Of a DNA stretch of 64,000 bases, positions 49,481 through 55,681 are shown piece by piece. Every line of letters starts with the position of its first letter. Within the stretch, counting starts at the first letter, position 1. The stretch is from Fodinicola feengrottensis (GTDB lineage Bacteria > Actinomycetota > Actinomycetes > Mycobacteriales > HKI-0501). The stretch lies in contig NZ_WOTO01000006.1 in the NCBI RefSeq assembly GCF_010993775.1, forward strand, positions 79,273 to 143,272. Direction: 5' to 3'. The position numbers and the translations under genes were made by a program. Under the pieces are notes generated by a model, which saw nothing but the letters and a program-made list of their open reading frames with translations, searched no databases and was not told the DNA's origin.

Positions 49481-50460
49481 CACTGTCCACTCCGGACTCG
49501 CGGCACCGGCGTGCGGAAAAGCCACCAGCTCACGAGCTGGCTGGCGGCCATCAGCGGAGCGGCGATGACCGCGAAAGTGGTCAGGGTCTGCAAAGTCGAC
49601 GAGCCAGAGGCCGCCGCGGCAACCGTCAGGCCGCTGGCCGGATCGACCGATGAGGCCACCAGAACTCCAGGGTGGGCGGCCACGAGCGCCACGATCGGCA
49701 CCGCCATCGCGACCATACTGGCCGCGAAAGCCGACCACCACAGTCGATTCCGGCGCAGCCAGACCCGGACCGCCACCAGGGCGGCGATTCCCACGCAGAG
49801 CAGGACGATCTCGCTGCCCGTCTGTCCCATGTGGACGAAGGCCAGACAGCCGGCACTCACCAACAAAAGGCCAATCGACAGGGGCGCGCTGCGCTGCCCG
49901 ATCCGAGCCGCCAGCTGGCGTACGTCACCGCCGGCCCGCAACGACAGGAAAGTCGCGCCGTGCGTGACCATCAGCGCGACCATGGTCAACGCACCGACGT
50001 ACGTCATCGGCTGGGTCAGCAGCGCCAGCTGGTCCGGAGCCGCACCGATCCGCCAGGGCAGGCCGACGAAGAGTGTCCCCAGCACCGCGCCCCAGCCCAG
50101 CGCCGCGGCCACCGCGCCACCGGCCGCGATCGTGCCGGCGACTCGTTGCCCGCGACCTCGGGCCACCCAGAAAAGCGGAACCCCTGCGGTGACCGCGACA
50201 ACGCCAGCCAAGGCCACGACCACCAGCGGATATAACCCGGACAACAACAGTTCTTCGGCGTGCGTGAACGCCCCGGCGACCACCCCAACAGTGGCGACCA
50301 ACCAGACTTCGTTGCGGAGCAACACCGGTCGCAGCGTGTCCAGCGTCTCGGCCCGGGCCCGTCCAGAAAGAACGGACAGCATGCCGACGCCGTAGTCATA
50401 GCCGGCCAACAGCAGGTAGCCGGCAAAGAGCACGCCCAGCGCGAGCGCCCAGCCGATCAC
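49480..50460 (-). CDS. cydB: cytochrome bd ubiquinol oxidase subunit II
   Basis: A 326-aa polytopic membrane protein MIGWALALGVLFAGYLLLAGYDYGVGML... typical of CydB. Intact. Confidence 0.85.
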   Translation of the reverse strand: MIGWALALGVLFAGYLLLAGYDYGVGMLSVLSGRARAETLDTLRPVLLRNEVWLVATVGVVAGAFTHAEELLLSGLYPLVVVALAGVVAVTAGVPLFWVARGRGQRVAGTIAAGGAVAAALGWGAVLGTLFVGLPWRIGAAPDQLALLTQPMTYVGALTMVALMVTHGATFLSLRAGGDVRQLAARIGQRSAPLSIGLLLVSAGCLAFVHMGQTGSEIVLLCVGIAALVAVRVWLRRNRLWWSAFAASMVAMAVPIVALVAAHPGVLVASSVDPASGLTVAAAASGSSTLQTLTTFAVIAAPLMAASQLVSWWLFRTPVPRVRSGQ

Positions 50461-51729
50461 AGGGTCACCATCTCAAGGTCGTCTCGTACGGGTTCGATGC
50501 CGCTGTCATCGGAAGGAACGGACCAGAAAGTCCAGCCTGGACCACGTTTTGCCAGCCGGGTCAGCAAGATCCAGTCAAGGCCGCCGAGAAATGCGAACAG
50601 CACAGCGAAAATCGCGAAGCTCACTCCCACGGTGGTCGCCCCGACGCCGGAGATGGCCTGGTCAGTTTTCAGTACGCCGTAGACGACCCACGGTTGCCGG
50701 CCGACTTCTCGCCACACCCAACCGGCGATGGCGGCGAGGAACGGCAGGAACATCAGGTACGTCAGCAGCCGCAGCGGCCACGACCAGCGCAACAAACGGT
50801 CCCGGAAAGAAAGGAAGAGCGAGGCGACCAGGCCGACCGCCGCAAGAACAATGCCGATGTAGAGCATGGTGTCGCCGGCCCAGTGAATCCAGTCCGGCGG
50901 CAGGTAGTTGCCCGGGCCGTACTGAGCGCTCAGGTCGGCCTGCACCTTCGCCATCTCGACCGGACTTTCGTGCCACATGGCGGCTTTTGCTGGTATCAAT
51001 GTGAAAACGTGGAACTGTCGGACACCGGTATAGATCTGGGCGCCGGCGGCCAGAGTGGCGATCGGCAGCGCGAACCGCAGCGTGGGCAGGAAGAATTCGC
51101 GGTCCCGGCCGCGCCGCAGGTGCCATGTGCTGACCCCGATCATGAACCAGGCGCCGACCATAATGCCGGCCGACGCGACGTGCGGGAAGGCCAGCCAGAG
51201 GTTCGGGTTTGTCAGCAGCGCCCCGAAATCGGTCAGTATGCCCACGTCACCTTGGATCGCGTACCCGACCGGGTGGTGCAGGAAGGAATTCGCCACCAGC
51301 ACCCAGAAAGCGGACAGGTACGCGGTCACGCAAAACCAGCCAGATCACCACCGTGTGCGCGACCCGGCCGATCCGGTCCCAGCCGAAGATCCAGATCCCC
51401 AGCAGCGTGGATTCTATGAAGAACGCCACCAGCGTCTCCATGGTCAGCGGGGCACCGAAAACCCCACCGACCAGCTTGTTCAGCCCGGCCCAGTTCAGCC
51501 CCAGCTGGAATTCCATCAGCACCCCGCTGGCGATGCCGACCAGGTAGTTGACCACGTACAGCTGGCCCCAGAACCGGACCTGCCGCAGGTGCTCGGGGTT
51601 TTTCGTGAACGCGTATCGGGTCTGCAGGATCGCGACCAGCGTCACGAGCCCGAGAGTGAGAAGGACAAAGAGAAAATGAAACGAGGTGGTGGCGGCGAAC
51701 TCCCACCGCGCCACAGTCAGTTCGCTCAT
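50457..51729 (-). CDS. cydA: cytochrome bd ubiquinol oxidase subunit I (frameshift near 51330)
   Basis: N-terminus MSELTVARWEFAATTSFHFLFVLLTLGL... and the Q-loop region are typical of CydA. Spread over ORFs 51247..51750 and 50457..51329. Confidence 0.85.
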
Positions 51730-51895: not shown

Positions 51896-53500
51896 TCAGA
51901 ACGGCCAGTCGGCGTTCCGGCCGCCTTCCAGCAGAGGGATCATCGCGAAGCACTGGTCGGTCAGCCCACCGAAGGTGTATCGGTTGGCTCGGTCCGCGGC
52001 GTGGCCCTGTTGGTAGCCGGCCAGATTCCAGGTATACAGCGGAACAGTGTCCGGCAGCAGCGCCTGCCCGACATCGCCGCGGGCCGCTTGCTCGTCGGTG
52101 AGGATGACAACCCGGTCATGCCCCGCGAAGTGCCTCTGCACGGCGCCGACAGTGTCGGTGCCGCCGTTGAGAAAATAGCCGTCGGACTTCCACCGCTGCA
52201 CGGCCTTGAGCACCGATTCCCCCGCCTTGGCGGGAAAAAAACCAGCGACGGGGTCTGGCCCTGCCAGCCGTTCGAGAAGGACACCACGTCGGCCTTCTCA
52301 CAGCGTTGCGCCAGCGCCAGGCCGAAAAGCACCGCCGCGTCCCACCGCATCAGGCTGCCGTCCCGCGAGAAGCTCTCGTCCATCGATCCCGAGGTGTCGA
52401 CCAGCACCAGCGTACGTCCACGCAGCGCGGGAATGCGGCCGAGTGAATGCTGCAGAGCCTGCTCCAGCGGCCAGGCCCAGCGCAGGCTTGGTGCCGCGTT
52501 GTACGCCGACAGGAACCGCATCGGCAGCTGCCGCGACCGCGCGACCTGGTCCGGATCGGCGAGTCTCTCGGCGACTTTTCCGGCGCTCCGGTCGGAAAGT
52601 CCGGCCTGGTCGAAATTCCGCAGGTTGCGAAGCAGCGCCATGTAACCCATCGACGGGATGATCGCGGCCCATTTCTTGGCCGAGAGCGGAGCCTGCAGCC
52701 ATCCGGACAGCGATTCCCACGTCATGCCCGCATCGCGCAGCACGGCCGCCACTTCTTCGGGCTCGTGCCGGGTGAACAGCTCGATCCGGGCCTCGTGCGG
52801 CCAGCTCATCAGATCCGCGTGCGCGACCAGCAGCGGCAGCGAGTCCGGGATCGGGTTGTCGCGCTTGTGTCGCCGGTCGATGGCGTGCCGGAAAAGATCG
52901 CCCTGCCACGGCGAATCCGCCGCCGGCGAGGCGTGTGTCAACTCCAGTACGTCCGCGAACCGGTAGCCATGCGCGGCGGAATCCCACTTGAGCAGCGAAC
53001 GCTGGTCGTACAACCGGCGTACCCCGTCGGCGATCCCGCGCTTGACCGGTTTCGGGATGGACCGGCCATAACGTGAGGTCCAGTACGCCAGCAGCTCGCC
53101 CGGCTCGTCGGCGCGCAGCAGCACGGAATCGACCACCTGACGGGAAAGTCCGGCCTCGCCGGCGAGCAGTCGGGCGCGCGCGAACTCGGCGGCGCCGACC
53201 AGCGCAGCCGAGCGCAGGTTGGCCTCGGTCCGCAGCCAGCGCAGGAACCGGCCAGTCCAGTCCGGATCCTGCTGGGTCACCGCATGCACCAGCCCGACGA
53301 AACGGCTGTCGCGATCGCCGGCGGACACATAGAAAGTCTCCTCCCCGACCAGGTTCATCACGGCCAGCAGGAAAAGTTCCGACTTCGCGTCACGAGCGTA
53401 ACCCGCGCCACCTTGAAACGTCAGCTGGCTAGGCACCTGCTCGCTGGTCACCGGACCGAACGCGGCCGGCCTGGCCGTCGCCGCGTTGAACTTGCTCACG
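51896..53500 (-). CDS. rsr: Ro60-related protein Rsr: TROVE domain plus C-terminal vWA domain (frameshifts near 52215-52260)
   Basis: GTG start with a GGAGGGG SD. TROVE N-terminus VSKFNAATARPAAFGPVTSEQVPSQLTFQGGAGYARDAKSELFLLAVMNLVGEETFYV. vWA MIDAS-like ...LVLVDTSGSM.... The true C-terminus is in ORF 51896..52213 (...YTFGGLTDQCFAMIPLLEGGRNADWPF*). Confidence 0.8.
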
Positions 53501-53516
53501 TCTTTCCCCTCCGTGT

Positions 53517-53693
53517 GGGGAGCCGCAGCTTCAAGAATGCCCGAGACCAAAGTCGGAAACGGTACGTAATGTGCTCTCCCAGCTGAGCTACGGTCGCCCG
53601 AACGACCGGCGGGACTCGAACCCGCGACCTCACCATTAAAAGGAAGTAACCGTCGCCTGCGCACCGGGCATCCATGAAGTTGTCGCTCCCGAG
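53517..53693 (-). ncRNA. yrlA: bacterial Y RNA (YrlA-like) with a circularly permuted tRNA-like module and a terminal Rsr-binding-type stem
   Basis: On the minus strand the order is T-arm (gcggg-TTCGAGT-cccgc), then a 7-bp acceptor-like stem cggtcgt/gcgaccg capped by a UCGG loop, then U8-A9 and a D-arm (GCUCAGCUGGGAGAGC). The two termini are complementary: 5' gggagcgacaa-cttca-tgg-atgcccg against 3' cgggcat-tct-tgaag-ctgcggctccc. The 3' end is 17 nt upstream of the rsr start. Confidence 0.6.
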
Positions 53694-53842
53694 ATCAGTA
53701 ATGCCCAGCGGTGGATTCTTTAAGGAAGTAACCGCCAAGCCGCGCACCGGGAGTGCTCTGGAACAAGATCGTATCTGGGGTGGCGCTGATGGTCGATCGG
53801 TTTTCCCTTTGGGGAAGCGAGTCTGCCCCGCGCGATCAGGAA

Positions 53843-54517
53843 TCAGCGGGGCGGGGTGACCAAGCCACTGCGGTACGCCATGGCGACGAGTTGCGCACGG
53901 TCGCGCGCGTCGAGTTTGACCAGTGCCCGGCTGACGTGGTTTTTTTTTCGCGGTGGTGGGGCTGATGAACAGGCGCTCGGCGATGTCGTCGTTGTTCAGG
54001 CCTTCGGCGACCAGGGTGACCACTTCACGTTCGCGTTCGGTCAGTGCGGCCAGCGCCGCGTTGTCCACAGTGGACGGTCCAGGGCTGGCGGCGATCCGGG
54101 CGATCATCCGCCGGGTGACACCGGGGGAGAGCAGACCGTCGCCGCTGGCGACCACCCGGATCGCCCGCAGCAGCTCGACCGGATCGGTGTCCTTGACCAG
54201 AAAACCGCTCGCGCCGGCCCGTAAGGCGGCCAGCACGTGCTCGTCGTGATCGAACGTGGTGAGGATGAGGACGTGTACGCCAGCCAGATCCTCGTCGGCG
54301 GTGATCCGCTGAGAGTCGCTTCGATGCCGTCCAGCTCCGGCATCCGGATGTCCATCAGCACCACGTCCGCGCGTACTTTTCTTACTAAATCAAGGACTTC
54401 GTGACCGGTGGATGCCTCGCCGACCAGTTCCAGATCGTCCTCGGTTTCCACCAGAGTCCGGAAACCGGCTCGTACCAGCGCATGGTCGTCCGCGATCAGC
54501 ACCCGGATGCGGCTCAT
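53843..54517 (-). CDS. NarL/FixJ-family response regulator (frameshifts, including an A/T homopolymer near 53940-53948)
   Basis: Receiver MSRIRVLIADDHALVRAGFRTLVETEDDLELVGEASTGHEVLDLVRKVRADVVLMDIRMPELDGIEAT. LuxR HTH ...LTEREREVVTLVAEGLNNDDIAERLFISPTTAK..VSRALVKL... recovered across frames. Confidence 0.8.
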
Positions 54518-55681
54518 CGGGACTCCACCGGCAGCTGGCACGCGACCTGAAAACCGCCGCCGACCCGGCCGGCGTCAAAGGTGCCGCCGAGCGTACGAGC
54601 GCGCTCTCGCATGCCGGCGAGGCCGCTGCCGCTGCCGCCGAAAGAGCCCGATCCCGACCCGTCGTCCTCGACGGTGATGCCGAGCGCGTCGGATCGGTAG
54701 GTGAGCTGGATCGCCACTTTGCTCGCGTGCGCGCGTGTCGGACCACGTTGGTGAGCGCCTCCTGGACGATCCGATATGCGGCGAGTTCCACCGCGGCCGG
54801 CAGCGTCGCCGGTTCTCCCAGCACGGTAACGGTGGCGTGCAGGCCGGCCGCCTCGGCCATCCGAGTCAGCTCCGGCAGCCGGCGCAGGCTCGCCGCCGGG
54901 TGCCGTTCGTCCAGGTTGGCGTCCTGGCTGCGCAGCGCCCCAAGGACGCTACGCAGTTCACCGAGCGCCTCGGTGGACGTCTGTTTTATGGCATCCAACG
55001 ACTCTTTGGCCTTCTCCGGCCTGCGGTCGATGACGTGCGACGCGACCCCCGCCTGCACGCTGATGCTCGCAATGCTGTGCGCGATCACGTCATGCACCTC
55101 GTACGCGATCCGCAGCCGCTCCTCGTTCACCAGCCGGGCCGCCTCGGCGTCCCGCTCCCGCTCCAGCTGCGCGACCCGCTCGGTCATCACCTTGCGCCAC
55201 GCGAGGTTGTAGCGGATCGCCTCGCCGAAAGCGACGGAGAGCTCAGTGCCAGCAGGACCGCGATGACCGAGTAATCGACGAACCGGTGGTCGCTGAAGAG
55301 CAGCCGGATCGTTCCGGTGCCGAAGCCGATGGTCAGCAGGCCGGCCAAAATCCCTGACCAGCGGCCCAACACGATGGTCAGGGTGACGCAGACGATGATC
55401 GGCACGATCAGGATCACCCGGCCGTAGAAGCCGAGCAGGAACCACAGCAGCATGCAGGTCAGGTTGGTGACGGCGGTTGGTACGGGATAGCGCCGACGCA
55501 GGATCGTGGCCGCCGTGACCGCAGCGACCAGGAGCGCGCCGACCACGTCGAAGCGGCGAAGGTCGACGCCGCCGAGCCCGATGCCGGTGATGCCGTTGAA
55601 GGCGATCACCCCGCCAGTGACCAGGCCGAGTGCCAGGTCGTACCGGCTCGGCCGGCGATCCCGGAACCAGGCTGCGTTCAT
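54514..55681 (-). CDS. sensor histidine kinase (HisKA_3/NarX-DesK type; frameshifted)
   Basis: N-terminal multi-TM sensor (ORF 55187..55681). HisKA_3 dimerisation region ERLRIAYEVHDVIAHSIASISVQAGVA. HATPase_c end ...ITVEDDGSGSG...GSGLAGMRERARTLGGTFDA... (ORF 54514..54717). Stop abuts the response regulator start. Confidence 0.75.

What the first reader, a model, noticed from the sequence alone, without database searches (positions are those of the whole stretch)
53517..53693. Y RNA with a circularly permuted tRNA-like core directly upstream of the Ro60 (Rsr) gene
The 180 nt upstream of the TROVE/vWA rsr gene is co-directional with it and visibly lower in GC than the coding DNA.

On the minus strand it encodes a canonical tRNA T-arm (GCGGG-UUCGAGU-CCCGC). 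That is followed immediately by a 7-bp acceptor-like helix closed by a UCGG tetraloop, where a tRNA would have its 5'/3' termini. Next come U8-A9 and a textbook D-arm (GCUCAGCUGGGAGAGC). No anticodon arm is present.

The outer 25-30 nt on each side are mutually complementary and would form a long bulged terminal stem: gggagcgacaa-cttca-tgg-atgcccg pairs with cgggcat-tct-tgaag-ctgcggctccc.

This matches bacterial YrlA-type Y RNAs, which are encoded next to rsr, whose termini form the Ro-binding stem, and whose second module mimics tRNA. A tRNA scanner or protein annotation would not report it, because the arm order is permuted and no protein is involved.
Basis: partly seen in the sequence, partly recalled or inferred. 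Interest (0 to 1): 0.8.

Follow-up and report, generated by a model that had tools for sequence, protein, structure and literature searches.

The report
YrlA-type Y RNA upstream of rsr

Summary

The window comes from Fodinicola feengrottensis. A covariance model built from 56 orthologous actinomycete rsr loci, without the window, hits 53673-53531 (-) at 132.6 bits (E 2e-28) and nowhere else in 64 kb. Across those loci, 29 of 41 base pairs show compensatory changes. The tertiary Levitt pair is G:C in 31 and A:U in 25, with no exception.

Rfam YrlA matches at 43.6 bits, E 3.5e-8, below its gathering score of 69. That explains the missing annotation.

This is the YrlA class of Chen et al. 2014, including the 7-bp acceptor stem of Mycobacterium smegmatis YrlA, which RNase P cuts. 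It is a new member of a known kind, so interest is low to moderate.

New points:
- A conserved short Y RNA lies at 53759-53684, directly upstream.
- A promoter-like site precedes it, so the order is probably promoter, short Y RNA, YrlA, rsr.
- The 3' strand of YrlA's outermost stem (CUCCCC) can instead pair with the rsr ribosome-binding site. This possible translational switch is untested.
- rsr carries a frameshift at a T7 run.

The parts
53791..53796 (-). Promoter-like -35 hexamer TCGACC
   Evidence: Read. It lies 17 nt upstream of the -10-like hexamer. Orthologous loci show TTGAyC-like hexamers at the same distance. It is below the threshold of the consensus scan. Inferred, not shown.
53768..53773 (-). 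Promoter-like -10 hexamer TACGAT (TAnnnT)
   Evidence: A TAnnnT hexamer lies within 22 nt upstream of the short Y RNA in 22 of 29 loci. Inferred.
53684..53759 (-). Short upstream Y RNA (YrlB-like). It has a basal helix CUCCCGG/CUCGGGAG, the conserved loop UGCGCGG, a covarying middle helix, and a GGUUACUUC motif with a small apical hairpin. It has no T or D arm.
   Evidence: Model R2, built from 23 orthologous loci without the window, scores 68.6 bits, E 1e-11. In one search, 88% of cells are paired against 36-53% for slid controls, and 5 pairs show compensatory changes. The layout short Y RNA then YrlA is the commonest architecture among the loci.
53517..53690 (-). YrlA with its full outer stem (GGGAGC...GCUCCCC). 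This is probably the precursor form.
   Evidence: Fold. In an alignment-free test, each locus's own outer strands pair at a mean of -22.3 kcal/mol against -10.9 for partners from other species, with 41 distinct 5' strands.
53531..53673 (-). YrlA core: Ro-binding helix plus tRNA-like module. By analogy with the 147-nt M. smegmatis YrlA, this is about the size of the mature RNA.
   Evidence: R1 hit of 132.6 bits over the full model length. The M. smegmatis size is from PMC4201824.
53657..53673 (-). 5' strand of the Ro-binding helix, GGAUGCCCGG, plus the conserved unpaired UGCGCAG
   Evidence: CCCGGUGCGCAG is nearly invariant in 57 sequences. The outer pairs of the helix covary. The same motif occurs in the short Y RNA.
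53627..53647 (-). Variable (V) arm hairpin, preceded by the conserved UUAC
   Evidence: Fold. The V stem covaries in orthologs (pairs 36:46 and 37:45). In this window the stem is 2 nt shorter than the consensus.
53609..53625 (-). T arm GCGGG-UUCGAGU-CCCGC
   Evidence: All cells of the T stem are paired, and 3 pairs covary.
53591..53608 (-). Closed acceptor-like hairpin: 7 bp with loop UCGG. U is the discriminator-equivalent base, followed by C.
   Evidence: 49 of 63 loci have exactly 7 pairs, and all 7 pairs covary.
53573..53590 (-). U8-A9 and the D arm GCUC-AGCUGGGA-GAGC
   Evidence: UA is present in 54 of 56 sequences. The D stem is nearly invariant. G15 pairs with C48 (53626): the Levitt pair is G:C in 31 and A:U in 25 of 56 sequences, with no exception.
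53535..53563 (-). 3' strand of the anticodon-stem-like helix (ACCGU), the conserved CCGACUUUGGUC, and the 3' strand of the Ro-binding helix (UCGGGCAUUC)
53506..53522 (-). rsr leader hairpin. CUCCCC (53522-53517) is also the 3' end of the YrlA outer stem. ACACG forms the loop side, and GGAGGGG (53512-53506) is the ribosome-binding site.
   Evidence: The leader alone folds this way in the window and in all 53 loci analysed. SD-window G residues are paired 78% of the time, against 48% for 298 control gene starts. Function is inferred.
51896..53499 (-). rsr (Ro60 ortholog, TROVE plus vWA), GTG start at 53499. The reading frame breaks at a T7 run at 52241-52235.
   Evidence: Pfam TROVE match. The product is 100% identical to the Fodinicola feengrottensis TROVE protein. 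The frameshift is shown.

Best explanation
Window 53690-53517 (-) encodes a YrlA-class bacterial Y RNA.

Anatomy:
- Its 5' and 3' parts pair into a long stem.
- The inner section of that stem, CCCGG/CUCGGG flanked by the conserved unpaired UGCGCAG and CCGACUUnGAUC, is the binding site for the ring-shaped Rsr (Ro60) protein encoded immediately downstream.
- The distal end folds into a tRNA-like L-shape made of a variable arm, a T arm, a closed 7-bp acceptor-like hairpin and a D arm. This is a circularly permuted tRNA without an anticodon loop.

By analogy with characterised Y RNAs, the RNA gates access to Rsr or tethers it to an effector. In Deinococcus and Salmonella the effector is the exoribonuclease PNPase.

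The acceptor-like helix has exactly 7 pairs and is followed by N-C. The RNA is therefore predicted, like M. smegmatis YrlA, to be cut by RNase P in the loop and to receive a CCA end.

It is most likely transcribed from a promoter near 53796-53768 as one precursor, short Y RNA (53759-53684) then YrlA then rsr, and then processed.

Shown here: the sequence and structure, homology to YrlA, covariation, and conserved position and strand.

Inferred: expression, Rsr binding, RNase P/CCA processing, the effector, and the promoter.
For: - A TROVE gene lies downstream on the same strand.
- Rfam YrlA is the best family, at 43.6 bits and E 3.5e-8.
- Model R1, built without the window, hits 53673-53531 at 132.6 bits and E 2.3e-28.
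- 74 of 80 actinomycete rsr loci carry an R1 match of at least 87 bits upstream of rsr. All 147 matches are on the rsr strand, and 18 of those loci were not used in training.
- 94.8% of cells are paired against 36-51% for slid controls. 29 of 41 pairs have compensatory changes, and the covariation score is 0.433 against at most 0.104.
- RNAalifold independently finds 26 of 33 pairs with compensatory changes.
- The Levitt tertiary pair covaries perfectly, G:C in 31 and A:U in 25.
- 49 of 63 loci have a 7-bp acceptor-like stem, and the second loop base is C in 36 of 61.
- The outer stem is supported by an alignment-free test.
- The crystal structure of the tRNA-like fold is described in bioRxiv 10.1101/312249.
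Against: - There is no expression or binding evidence for this organism.
- The Rfam score is below the gathering threshold of 69.
- The published 5' motif GNCGAAN0-1G is matched only loosely, by UGCGCAG or GGCGACGG.
- The V arm is 2 nt shorter than the family consensus.
- rsr is frameshifted in this assembly. If the frameshift is real, the protein partner would lack part of its vWA domain.
- The window's outer stem is weaker than typical, -12.8 against a mean of -22.3 kcal/mol.
Confidence: 0.88

Rival explanations
1. The structure acts mainly in cis as a regulatory leader of the rsr mRNA. The 3' strand of the YrlA outer stem (CUCCCC) pairs either with the 5' strand (GGGAG) or with the rsr ribosome-binding site (GGAGGGG). 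GGGAG can in turn pair with CUCCC at the 5' end of the short Y RNA. Folding, processing or Rsr binding would then set rsr translation. This is compatible with the RNA also being a Y RNA.
For: - The leader hairpin sequesters the SD in the window and in all 53 loci analysed. In 48 of 53, the same nucleotides pair with the YrlA 5' strand when the SD is left out.
- rsr leaders have 78% of SD-window G residues paired, against 48% for 298 control starts in the same loci.
- GGGAG and CUCCC are nearly invariant, while the rest of the outer stem covaries freely.
- In 38 loci folded together with the short Y RNA, GGGAG pairs upstream in 18 and downstream in 18. The SD is mostly paired in the first case and mostly free in the second.
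- In L056, L070 and L079 the leader hairpin loop carries a third CCCGGUGCG motif.
Against: - Complementarity between the leader and the SD is no better than for composition-matched shuffles, mean z = -0.30.
- Minimum-free-energy predictions on GC-rich RNA are soft evidence.
- The loci are phylogenetically related, so the counts are not independent.
- In Streptomyces-type loci the hairpin is followed by a U-rich tract and could simply be a terminator or a 3'-end protecting hairpin.
- I found nothing in the literature on rsr autoregulation.
Confidence: 0.25
2. It is a decayed or rearranged tRNA gene, or a tRNA-derived remnant such as a former integration site, with no function of its own.
For: - The T arm, D arm and acceptor helix are tRNA-like.
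- The Rfam tRNA model gives a weak 18.6-bit match.
- ARAGORN calls tRNAs over the equivalent region in 17 of 56 orthologs.
Against: - The permuted order, spacing and position next to rsr are conserved in 74 of 80 loci across several actinomycete orders.
- Compensatory changes occur in every helix and at the Levitt pair. A decaying relic would not show this.
- The false tRNA calls carry varied anticodons.
- Neither ARAGORN nor Rfam at gathering thresholds reports a tRNA in the window.
Confidence: 0.02
3. The stretch is protein-coding. ORFs 53496-54236 (-) and 51961-53664 (-) both run through it.
For: Both ORFs appear in the mechanical ORF list.
Against: - The upstream regulator gene ends at TGA 53845-53843 once its frameshifts are taken into account.
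- rsr homologs start at the GTG at 53499, with an MSKFN N-terminus.
- Orthologous spacers differ by insertions and deletions that are not multiples of three, and by paired substitutions.
- Long spurious ORFs are expected at 66% G+C.
Confidence: 0.01

Closest known systems
Mycobacterium smegmatis YrlA (Chen et al. 2014, PMC4201824)
   Same: - It is an actinobacterial Y RNA encoded upstream of rsr on the same strand and co-transcribed with a second Y RNA.
- It has V, T, AS and D arms enclosed by a stem.
- Its acceptor-like stem has exactly 7 bp, the feature that makes it an RNase P substrate.
- Its size is similar: 147 nt against a 143-nt core here.
   Different: - In M. smegmatis the order is YrlA, YrlB, rsr, and YrlB has a T arm. 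Here the order is short Y RNA (no T arm), YrlA, rsr. Nocardia loci follow the mycobacterial order.
- Expression, Rsr binding and processing are shown there and are untested here.
Salmonella Typhimurium YrlA (Rfam RF02553; crystal structure PDB 6CU1)
   Same: It shows the same permuted tRNA-like architecture: T loop, D loop with GG, the UA linker, the Levitt pair, the conserved UA of YUAY, and an Rsr-binding stem.
   Different: - The Salmonella RNA has a 6-bp acceptor-like stem with a 3-nt loop and is not cut by RNase P.
- It has a short variable loop rather than a V arm.
- It lies in the RtcR-controlled rsr-yrlBA-rtcBA operon.
- The window element scores only 43.6 bits against the Rfam model, whose gathering score is 69.
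Deinococcus radiodurans Yrn1 and metazoan Y RNAs
   Same: These are Ro60-bound RNAs whose 5' and 3' ends pair into a bulged helix that Ro60 binds. A distal module recruits an effector, PNPase in Deinococcus.
   Different: - Yrn1 has the T and D-like elements in a different order, with an anticodon-like arm.
- Metazoan Y RNAs have no tRNA-like module.
- The Ro-binding sequence GGUCCGA is not present here.
Class II tRNAs and circularly permuted tRNA genes (for example in Cyanidioschyzon; from my own knowledge)
   Same: It shares a long variable arm, the T-D elbow, a 7-bp acceptor helix, and an arm order that starts in the 3' half.
   Different: - There is no anticodon stem-loop at the canonical place. 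That position is occupied by the long Ro-binding stem.
- The acceptor end is a closed loop.
- It is not predicted to yield a decoding tRNA.

Membership tests
YrlA (Y RNA-like A; Chen et al. 2014; Rfam RF02553) | Encoded within 4 kb of, and on the same strand as, a TROVE-domain Ro60/Rsr gene | tested here: met
   The core ends 32 nt, and the outer stem 18 nt, upstream of the rsr start at 53499, on the same strand.
YrlA (Y RNA-like A; Chen et al. 2014; Rfam RF02553) | Nearly invariant T and D stem-loops, with an acceptor-like (AS) stem-loop between them, in the order T-AS-D | tested here: met
   T arm 53625-53609, AS 53608-53591, D arm 53588-53573. All seven AS pairs covary. The T and D sequences are conserved.
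YrlA (Y RNA-like A; Chen et al. 2014; Rfam RF02553) | tRNA-type tertiary signature: UA linker (U8-A9), GG in the D loop, a UUCRA T loop, and a covarying Levitt pair 15:48 | tested here: met
   The window has UA, AGCUGGGA, UUCGAGU and G15:C48. Across 56 orthologs the Levitt pair is G:C in 31 and A:U in 25, with no exception, and UA is present in 54 of 56.
YrlA (Y RNA-like A; Chen et al. 2014; Rfam RF02553) | Conserved YUAY at the start of the variable loop or arm | tested here: met
   UUAC lies at 53649-53646. TTAC, CTAC or ATAC occurs in 48 of 56 orthologs.
YrlA (Y RNA-like A; Chen et al. 2014; Rfam RF02553) | GNCGAAN0-1G motif near the 5' end (proposed Rsr contact) | tested here: inconclusive
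   There is no exact match. The conserved 5' block reads GGUGCGCAG, and GGUGCGAAG in the short Y RNAs and 5 of 56 YrlAs. It is followed by GGCGACGG. Each differs from the motif at one or two positions.
YrlA (Y RNA-like A; Chen et al. 2014; Rfam RF02553) | 5' and 3' regions pair to form the stem that carries the Rsr-binding site | tested here: met
   Helix 1 (10 pairs, 7 with compensatory changes) and helix 2 (8 pairs, all 8 with compensatory changes). The outer stem is supported.
YrlA (Y RNA-like A; Chen et al. 2014; Rfam RF02553) | Score at or above Rfam's curated gathering threshold (69 bits) | tested here: not met
   The score is 43.6 bits, E 3.5e-8. None of 20 orthologous actinomycete loci reaches the threshold either, and the Gordonia phage elements score 47 and 33 bits. 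This is an annotation cut-off, not a biological criterion. It shows that the model under-covers this clade.
YrlA (Y RNA-like A; Chen et al. 2014; Rfam RF02553) | Stable RNA bound by Rsr in vivo; pseudouridine 55 and dihydrouridine; RNase P and CCA processing in the 7-bp-stem subclass | not testable with these tools
   These require northern blot or RNA-seq, Rsr immunoprecipitation, modification mapping and RNase P assays.
tRNA (Rfam RF00005; ARAGORN) | Cloverleaf in canonical order, with an anticodon arm and free acceptor ends | tested here: not met
   ARAGORN finds none in the window. Rfam tRNA scores 18.6 bits against a gathering score of 29 and needs the D arm deleted. The arm order is permuted and the acceptor end is a closed loop.
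tmRNA (including two-piece permuted forms) | tRNA-like domain plus a tag-peptide reading frame | tested here: not met
   ARAGORN, which also searches for tmRNA, reports none. There is no Rfam tmRNA hit even at E up to 10.

The most novel reading that the evidence does not exclude
The two Y RNAs and the rsr leader may form a four-segment switch, resembling a classical attenuator.

The four segments are:
- A: CUCCC at the 5' end of the short Y RNA.
- B: GGGAG at the junction of the two RNAs.
- C: CUCCCC at the 3' end of YrlA.
- D: GGAGGGG, the rsr ribosome-binding site.

Either B pairs with C, which completes the YrlA outer stem and leaves the ribosome-binding site free. Or A pairs with B and C pairs with D, which completes the Rsr-binding helix of the short Y RNA and hides the ribosome-binding site.

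Rsr binding to the short Y RNA, or processing of the precursor, would then feed back on Rsr synthesis. That would be an autoregulatory circuit not described for any Ro60/Y RNA system.
Probability: 0.22. Interest if true: 0.6.

Novelty: new member of a known kind. Interest (0 to 1): 0.3.

Why it matters
For the finding as stated, little changes. It adds an unannotated YrlA from a poorly studied actinomycete lineage (Fodinicola) to a family described in 2014.

The practical value is in annotation:
- The Rfam YrlA model misses this whole actinomycete clade at its gathering score.
- tRNA scanners mislabel the 5' half of many of these RNAs as tRNAs. This includes deposited phage genomes.

The comparative set assembled here also gives testable leads for the Ro60 field:
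- A 7-bp acceptor stem is the rule in these actinomycetes (49 of 63 loci). The RNase P/CCA processing seen only in M. smegmatis may therefore be general in this clade.
- A conserved short Y RNA shares a strand with YrlA.
- The rsr ribosome-binding site is consistently paired with the end of the YrlA stem. This hints at coupling between Y RNA folding or processing and Rsr synthesis.

Tried and rejected
- Rfam at gathering thresholds found nothing in the window. In 20 orthologous loci it found only two ordinary tRNAs.
- ARAGORN found nothing in the window.
- The consensus promoter and terminator scan found no sites in 53300-54300. The promoter proposal therefore rests on weaker matches and on conservation.
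- I treated the weak Rfam hits to Plastid-ycf2 (plus strand), tRNA and mascRNA as by-products of the T arm.
- The supplementary tables of Chen et al. 2014 are not held as text. I could not check which actinomycetes were already listed, and I could not obtain the M. smegmatis sequence.
- A strict GNCGAAN0-1G motif was not found.
- The shuffle control for anti-SD:SD complementarity was not significant, mean z = -0.30. I therefore present the switch only as a hypothesis.
- I considered and rejected the idea that the upstream GCGACGG, which resembles the real acceptor 5' strand GCGACCG, forms a conserved alternative non-permuted cloverleaf. The resemblance is specific to this window and is not seen in the consensus.
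- Weak R1 and R2 hits elsewhere in the window (11393, 47356, 15459 and others, E of at least 0.7) are GC-rich hairpins and are taken as chance.

Full report
**What is there**

Read on the minus strand, the 343-nt spacer lies between the stop of a LuxR/NarL-type response-regulator gene (TGA 53845-53843) and the GTG start of a TROVE-domain gene at 53499.
- T arm GCGGG-UUCGAGU-CCCGC (53625-53609).
- A 7-bp hairpin CGGUCGU-UCGG-GCGACCG (53608-53591).
- UA (53590-53589).
- D arm GCUC-AGCUGGGA-GAGC (53588-53573).
- Outer segments that pair with each other.

RNAfold returns this topology at -79.6 kcal/mol, z = -3.1. ARAGORN finds no tRNA and Rfam at gathering thresholds finds nothing. The protein is 100% identical to the TROVE protein of Fodinicola feengrottensis.

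**Is it more than chance, and what family is it?**

With a permissive threshold, the best Rfam family for 53653-53550 (-) is YrlA (RF02553) at 43.6 bits, E 3.5e-8. This is below the gathering score of 69.

I fetched 80 actinomycete rsr loci. In 66 of them a T-loop motif lies about 125 nt, and a D-arm motif about 93 nt, upstream of rsr, as in the window.

An alignment of the window with 56 orthologs shows blocks of near-invariant sequence separated by covarying helices. RNAalifold predicts 33 pairs, 26 of them with compensatory changes.

I then wrote out a full structure on an alignment that excludes the window: Ro-binding helix, anticodon-stem-like helix, V arm, T arm, acceptor-like stem and D arm. 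On it:
- 94.8% of cells are paired, against 36-51% when the partners are slid by 1-3 columns.
- 29 of 41 pairs have changes on both sides.
- The covariation score is 0.433 against at most 0.104.

The covariance model built from that alignment (R1) hits the window at 53673-53531 (-) with 132.6 bits, E 2.3e-28, over its full length. There is nothing else significant in 64 kb.

Across the 80 loci the model gives 147 matches, all on the rsr strand. 74 loci have a match of at least 87 bits upstream of rsr, including 18 loci not used to build the model.

The tertiary Levitt pair (nucleotide 15 of the D loop with the base before the T stem) is G:C in 31 and A:U in 25 of 56 sequences, without exception. 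That is strong evidence for a tRNA-like three-dimensional fold.

**Comparison with what is known**

Chen et al. 2014 (PMC4201824) defined YrlA RNAs as follows:
- They are encoded within 4 kb of rsr on the same strand.
- They have conserved T and D stem-loops, an acceptor-like stem-loop between them, and often a V arm that begins with YUAY.
- They carry a 5' motif proposed to contact Rsr.

Chen et al. found such RNAs in more than 250 bacteria and phages, including actinobacteria (Gordonia, Streptosporangium, M. smegmatis). Wang et al. 2018 (bioRxiv 10.1101/312249) solved the Salmonella tRNA-like module.

The window element meets every structural criterion I could test. The exceptions are the strict GNCGAAN0-1G motif, which it matches only approximately, and the Rfam gathering score. 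None of 20 orthologous loci reaches that score either, so the curated model under-covers this clade.

One detail is worth noting. The acceptor-like stem has exactly 7 pairs in 49 of 63 loci, and the second loop base is C in 36 of 61. In M. smegmatis a 7-bp stem makes YrlA a substrate for RNase P, after which CA is added to give a CCA end. The window RNA (stem, then U, C, G, G) fits that subclass. This is an inference.

The motif CCCGGUGCGC...GGUUACUUCC occurs twice in the spacer. Mapping four motifs in all loci shows one commonest layout: a short element, with a 5' motif and a 3' motif but no T or D arm, directly upstream of YrlA. The window has this layout.

The short elements align well. They have an invariant basal helix CCCGG/CUCGGG, the same conserved unpaired GUGCGMAG, a middle helix with compensatory changes, and GGYUACUUC before a small hairpin. 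88% of cells are paired against 36-53% for slid controls.

A model built without the window (R2) hits 53759-53684 (-) at 68.6 bits, E 1e-11. It also hits the 5' part of YrlA more weakly, which shows that the two RNAs share the Ro-binding module.

This fits the published observation that each studied species has at least two Y RNAs. The order differs from M. smegmatis, however, where YrlB lies between YrlA and rsr. Nocardia loci follow the mycobacterial order and can carry five or six tandem elements.

A TAnnnT hexamer lies a few nucleotides upstream of the short RNA in 22 of 29 loci, often with a TTGAyC-like hexamer 17 nt further up. In the window these are TCGACC (53796-53791) and TACGAT (53773-53768). 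The likely unit is promoter, short Y RNA, YrlA, rsr. This is consistent with processing from one precursor, as in M. smegmatis.

**Shared strands and a possible switch (hypothesis)**

The 3' strand of the short RNA's basal helix (CUCGGGAG, 53693-53686) overlaps the 5' strand of YrlA's outermost stem (GGGAGC, 53690-53685). The 3' strand of that stem (CUCCCC, 53522-53517) can instead pair with the rsr ribosome-binding site (GGAGGGG, 53512-53506).

Evidence in favour:
- The outer stem as a whole is real. Each locus's own strands pair at a mean of -22.3 kcal/mol, against -10.9 for strands from other species, with 41 distinct sequences.
- Its ends, GGGAG and CUCCC, are nearly invariant.
- Folded alone, the leader forms the hairpin that hides the ribosome-binding site in all 53 loci analysed. 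In 48 of them the same nucleotides pair with the YrlA 5' strand when the ribosome-binding site is left out.
- G residues around the rsr ribosome-binding site are paired 78% of the time, against 48% for 298 other gene starts in the same loci.
- With the short RNA included, GGGAG pairs upstream in 18 and downstream in 18 of 38 loci. The ribosome-binding site is mostly paired in the first case and mostly free in the second.

Evidence against:
- Composition-matched shuffles pair with the ribosome-binding site about as well, mean z = -0.30.
- The loci are related, so the counts are not independent.
- In Streptomyces-type loci the hairpin is followed by a U-rich tract and may be a terminator.

I rate a functional switch at about 0.2-0.25.

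**Other observations**
- The rsr reading frame breaks at a T7 run (52241-52235). The conserved C-terminus continues in another frame to a stop at 51898-51896.
- The neighbouring regulator gene is broken at an A9 run. These are probably homopolymer sequencing errors.
- ARAGORN calls false tRNAs over the 5' half of YrlA in 17 of 56 orthologous loci.
- The deposited genomes of Streptomyces phage GiJojo and Gordonia phage VanLee annotate a 'tRNA-Arg' that overlaps an R1 hit upstream of their Ro-like genes.
- The reason is that the V-arm loop has an anticodon-loop signature: 7 nt in 50 of 56 sequences, C at position 32, U at 33, three variable bases, A at 37 and A at 38.

**Verdict**

It is a new member of a known kind. 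Interest is low to moderate, for three reasons: the annotation gap, the upstream second Y RNA, and the testable but unproven coupling to rsr translation.

Noticed in passing
window 52235-52241 (rsr, minus strand): The rsr reading frame breaks at a run of 7 T. The conserved C-terminal 110 aa (…GESVLKAVQRWKSDGYF…DWPF) continue in another frame to a stop at 51898-51896. The database protein of 512 aa therefore has a spurious Arg/Pro/Ser-rich tail. This is either a homopolymer sequencing error or a real pseudogene.
   Followed up: yes
window 53843-54560 (minus strand), A9 run at 53940-53948: The LuxR/NarL-type response-regulator gene upstream is split over two frames and switches frame twice. One frame change falls at a run of 9 A. 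Its real stop is TGA 53845-53843. Next to it lies a HisKA_3 histidine kinase gene (54390-55445).
   Followed up: partly
loci L003, L005, L022, L023, L033, L039, L050, L053, L059, L063, L067, L068, L073, L074, L077, L079, L080 at about 2820-2900; L081 1269-1343; L082 1204-1275: ARAGORN calls a 'tRNA' with varied anticodons over the 5' half of YrlA in 17 of 56 orthologous loci. The GenBank records of Streptomyces phage GiJojo (gene 29, tRNA-Arg cct) and Gordonia phage VanLee (gene 125, tRNA-Arg tct) carry such features on top of YrlA-model hits beside their Ro-like genes. These are probably mis-annotations.
   Followed up: partly
alignment A4 columns 38-44 (V-arm loop); window 53641-53635: The V-arm loop is 7 nt in 50 of 56 YrlAs. 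It has C (47/50), U (47/50), three variable bases, A (42/50) and A (49/50), which is the signature of an anticodon loop. I did not see this noted in the two YrlA papers I read. Its meaning is unknown. In the window the V arm is 2 nt shorter and the loop is U-rich.
   Followed up: partly
loci L009, L028, L041, L057 (Nocardia), positions about 1250-2970; L072 (Micromonospora) 111-2640: Some Nocardia loci carry five or six tandem Y-RNA-like elements upstream of rsr. One Micromonospora locus has 23 tRNA genes in a row directly upstream of YrlA and rsr.
   Followed up: no
loci L056, L070, L079, last 30 nt before the rsr start: In these loci the loop of the leader hairpin that hides the ribosome-binding site contains a third copy of the Ro-binding 5' motif, CCCGGUGCGG. 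This hints that Rsr might bind its own mRNA leader.
   Followed up: no
loci L007 5496-5643 and L021 4703-4833: Strong YrlA-model hits (119.8 and 63.2 bits) lie downstream of rsr on the same strand in two Nocardia loci. This departs from the usual upstream position.
   Followed up: no
window 50457-51329 (minus strand): An ORF of 290 aa matches only the C-terminal part (profile positions 304-418 of 418) of cytochrome bd oxidase subunit I. It may be another gene split by a frameshift in this assembly.
   Followed up: no
window 53823-53852 (minus strand): A G+C-rich hairpin (GCCCCGC...GCGGGGC) overlaps the stop codon of the regulator gene. It has no U tract and may be the terminator of the two-component operon, which would separate it from the Y RNA-rsr unit.
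   Followed up: no
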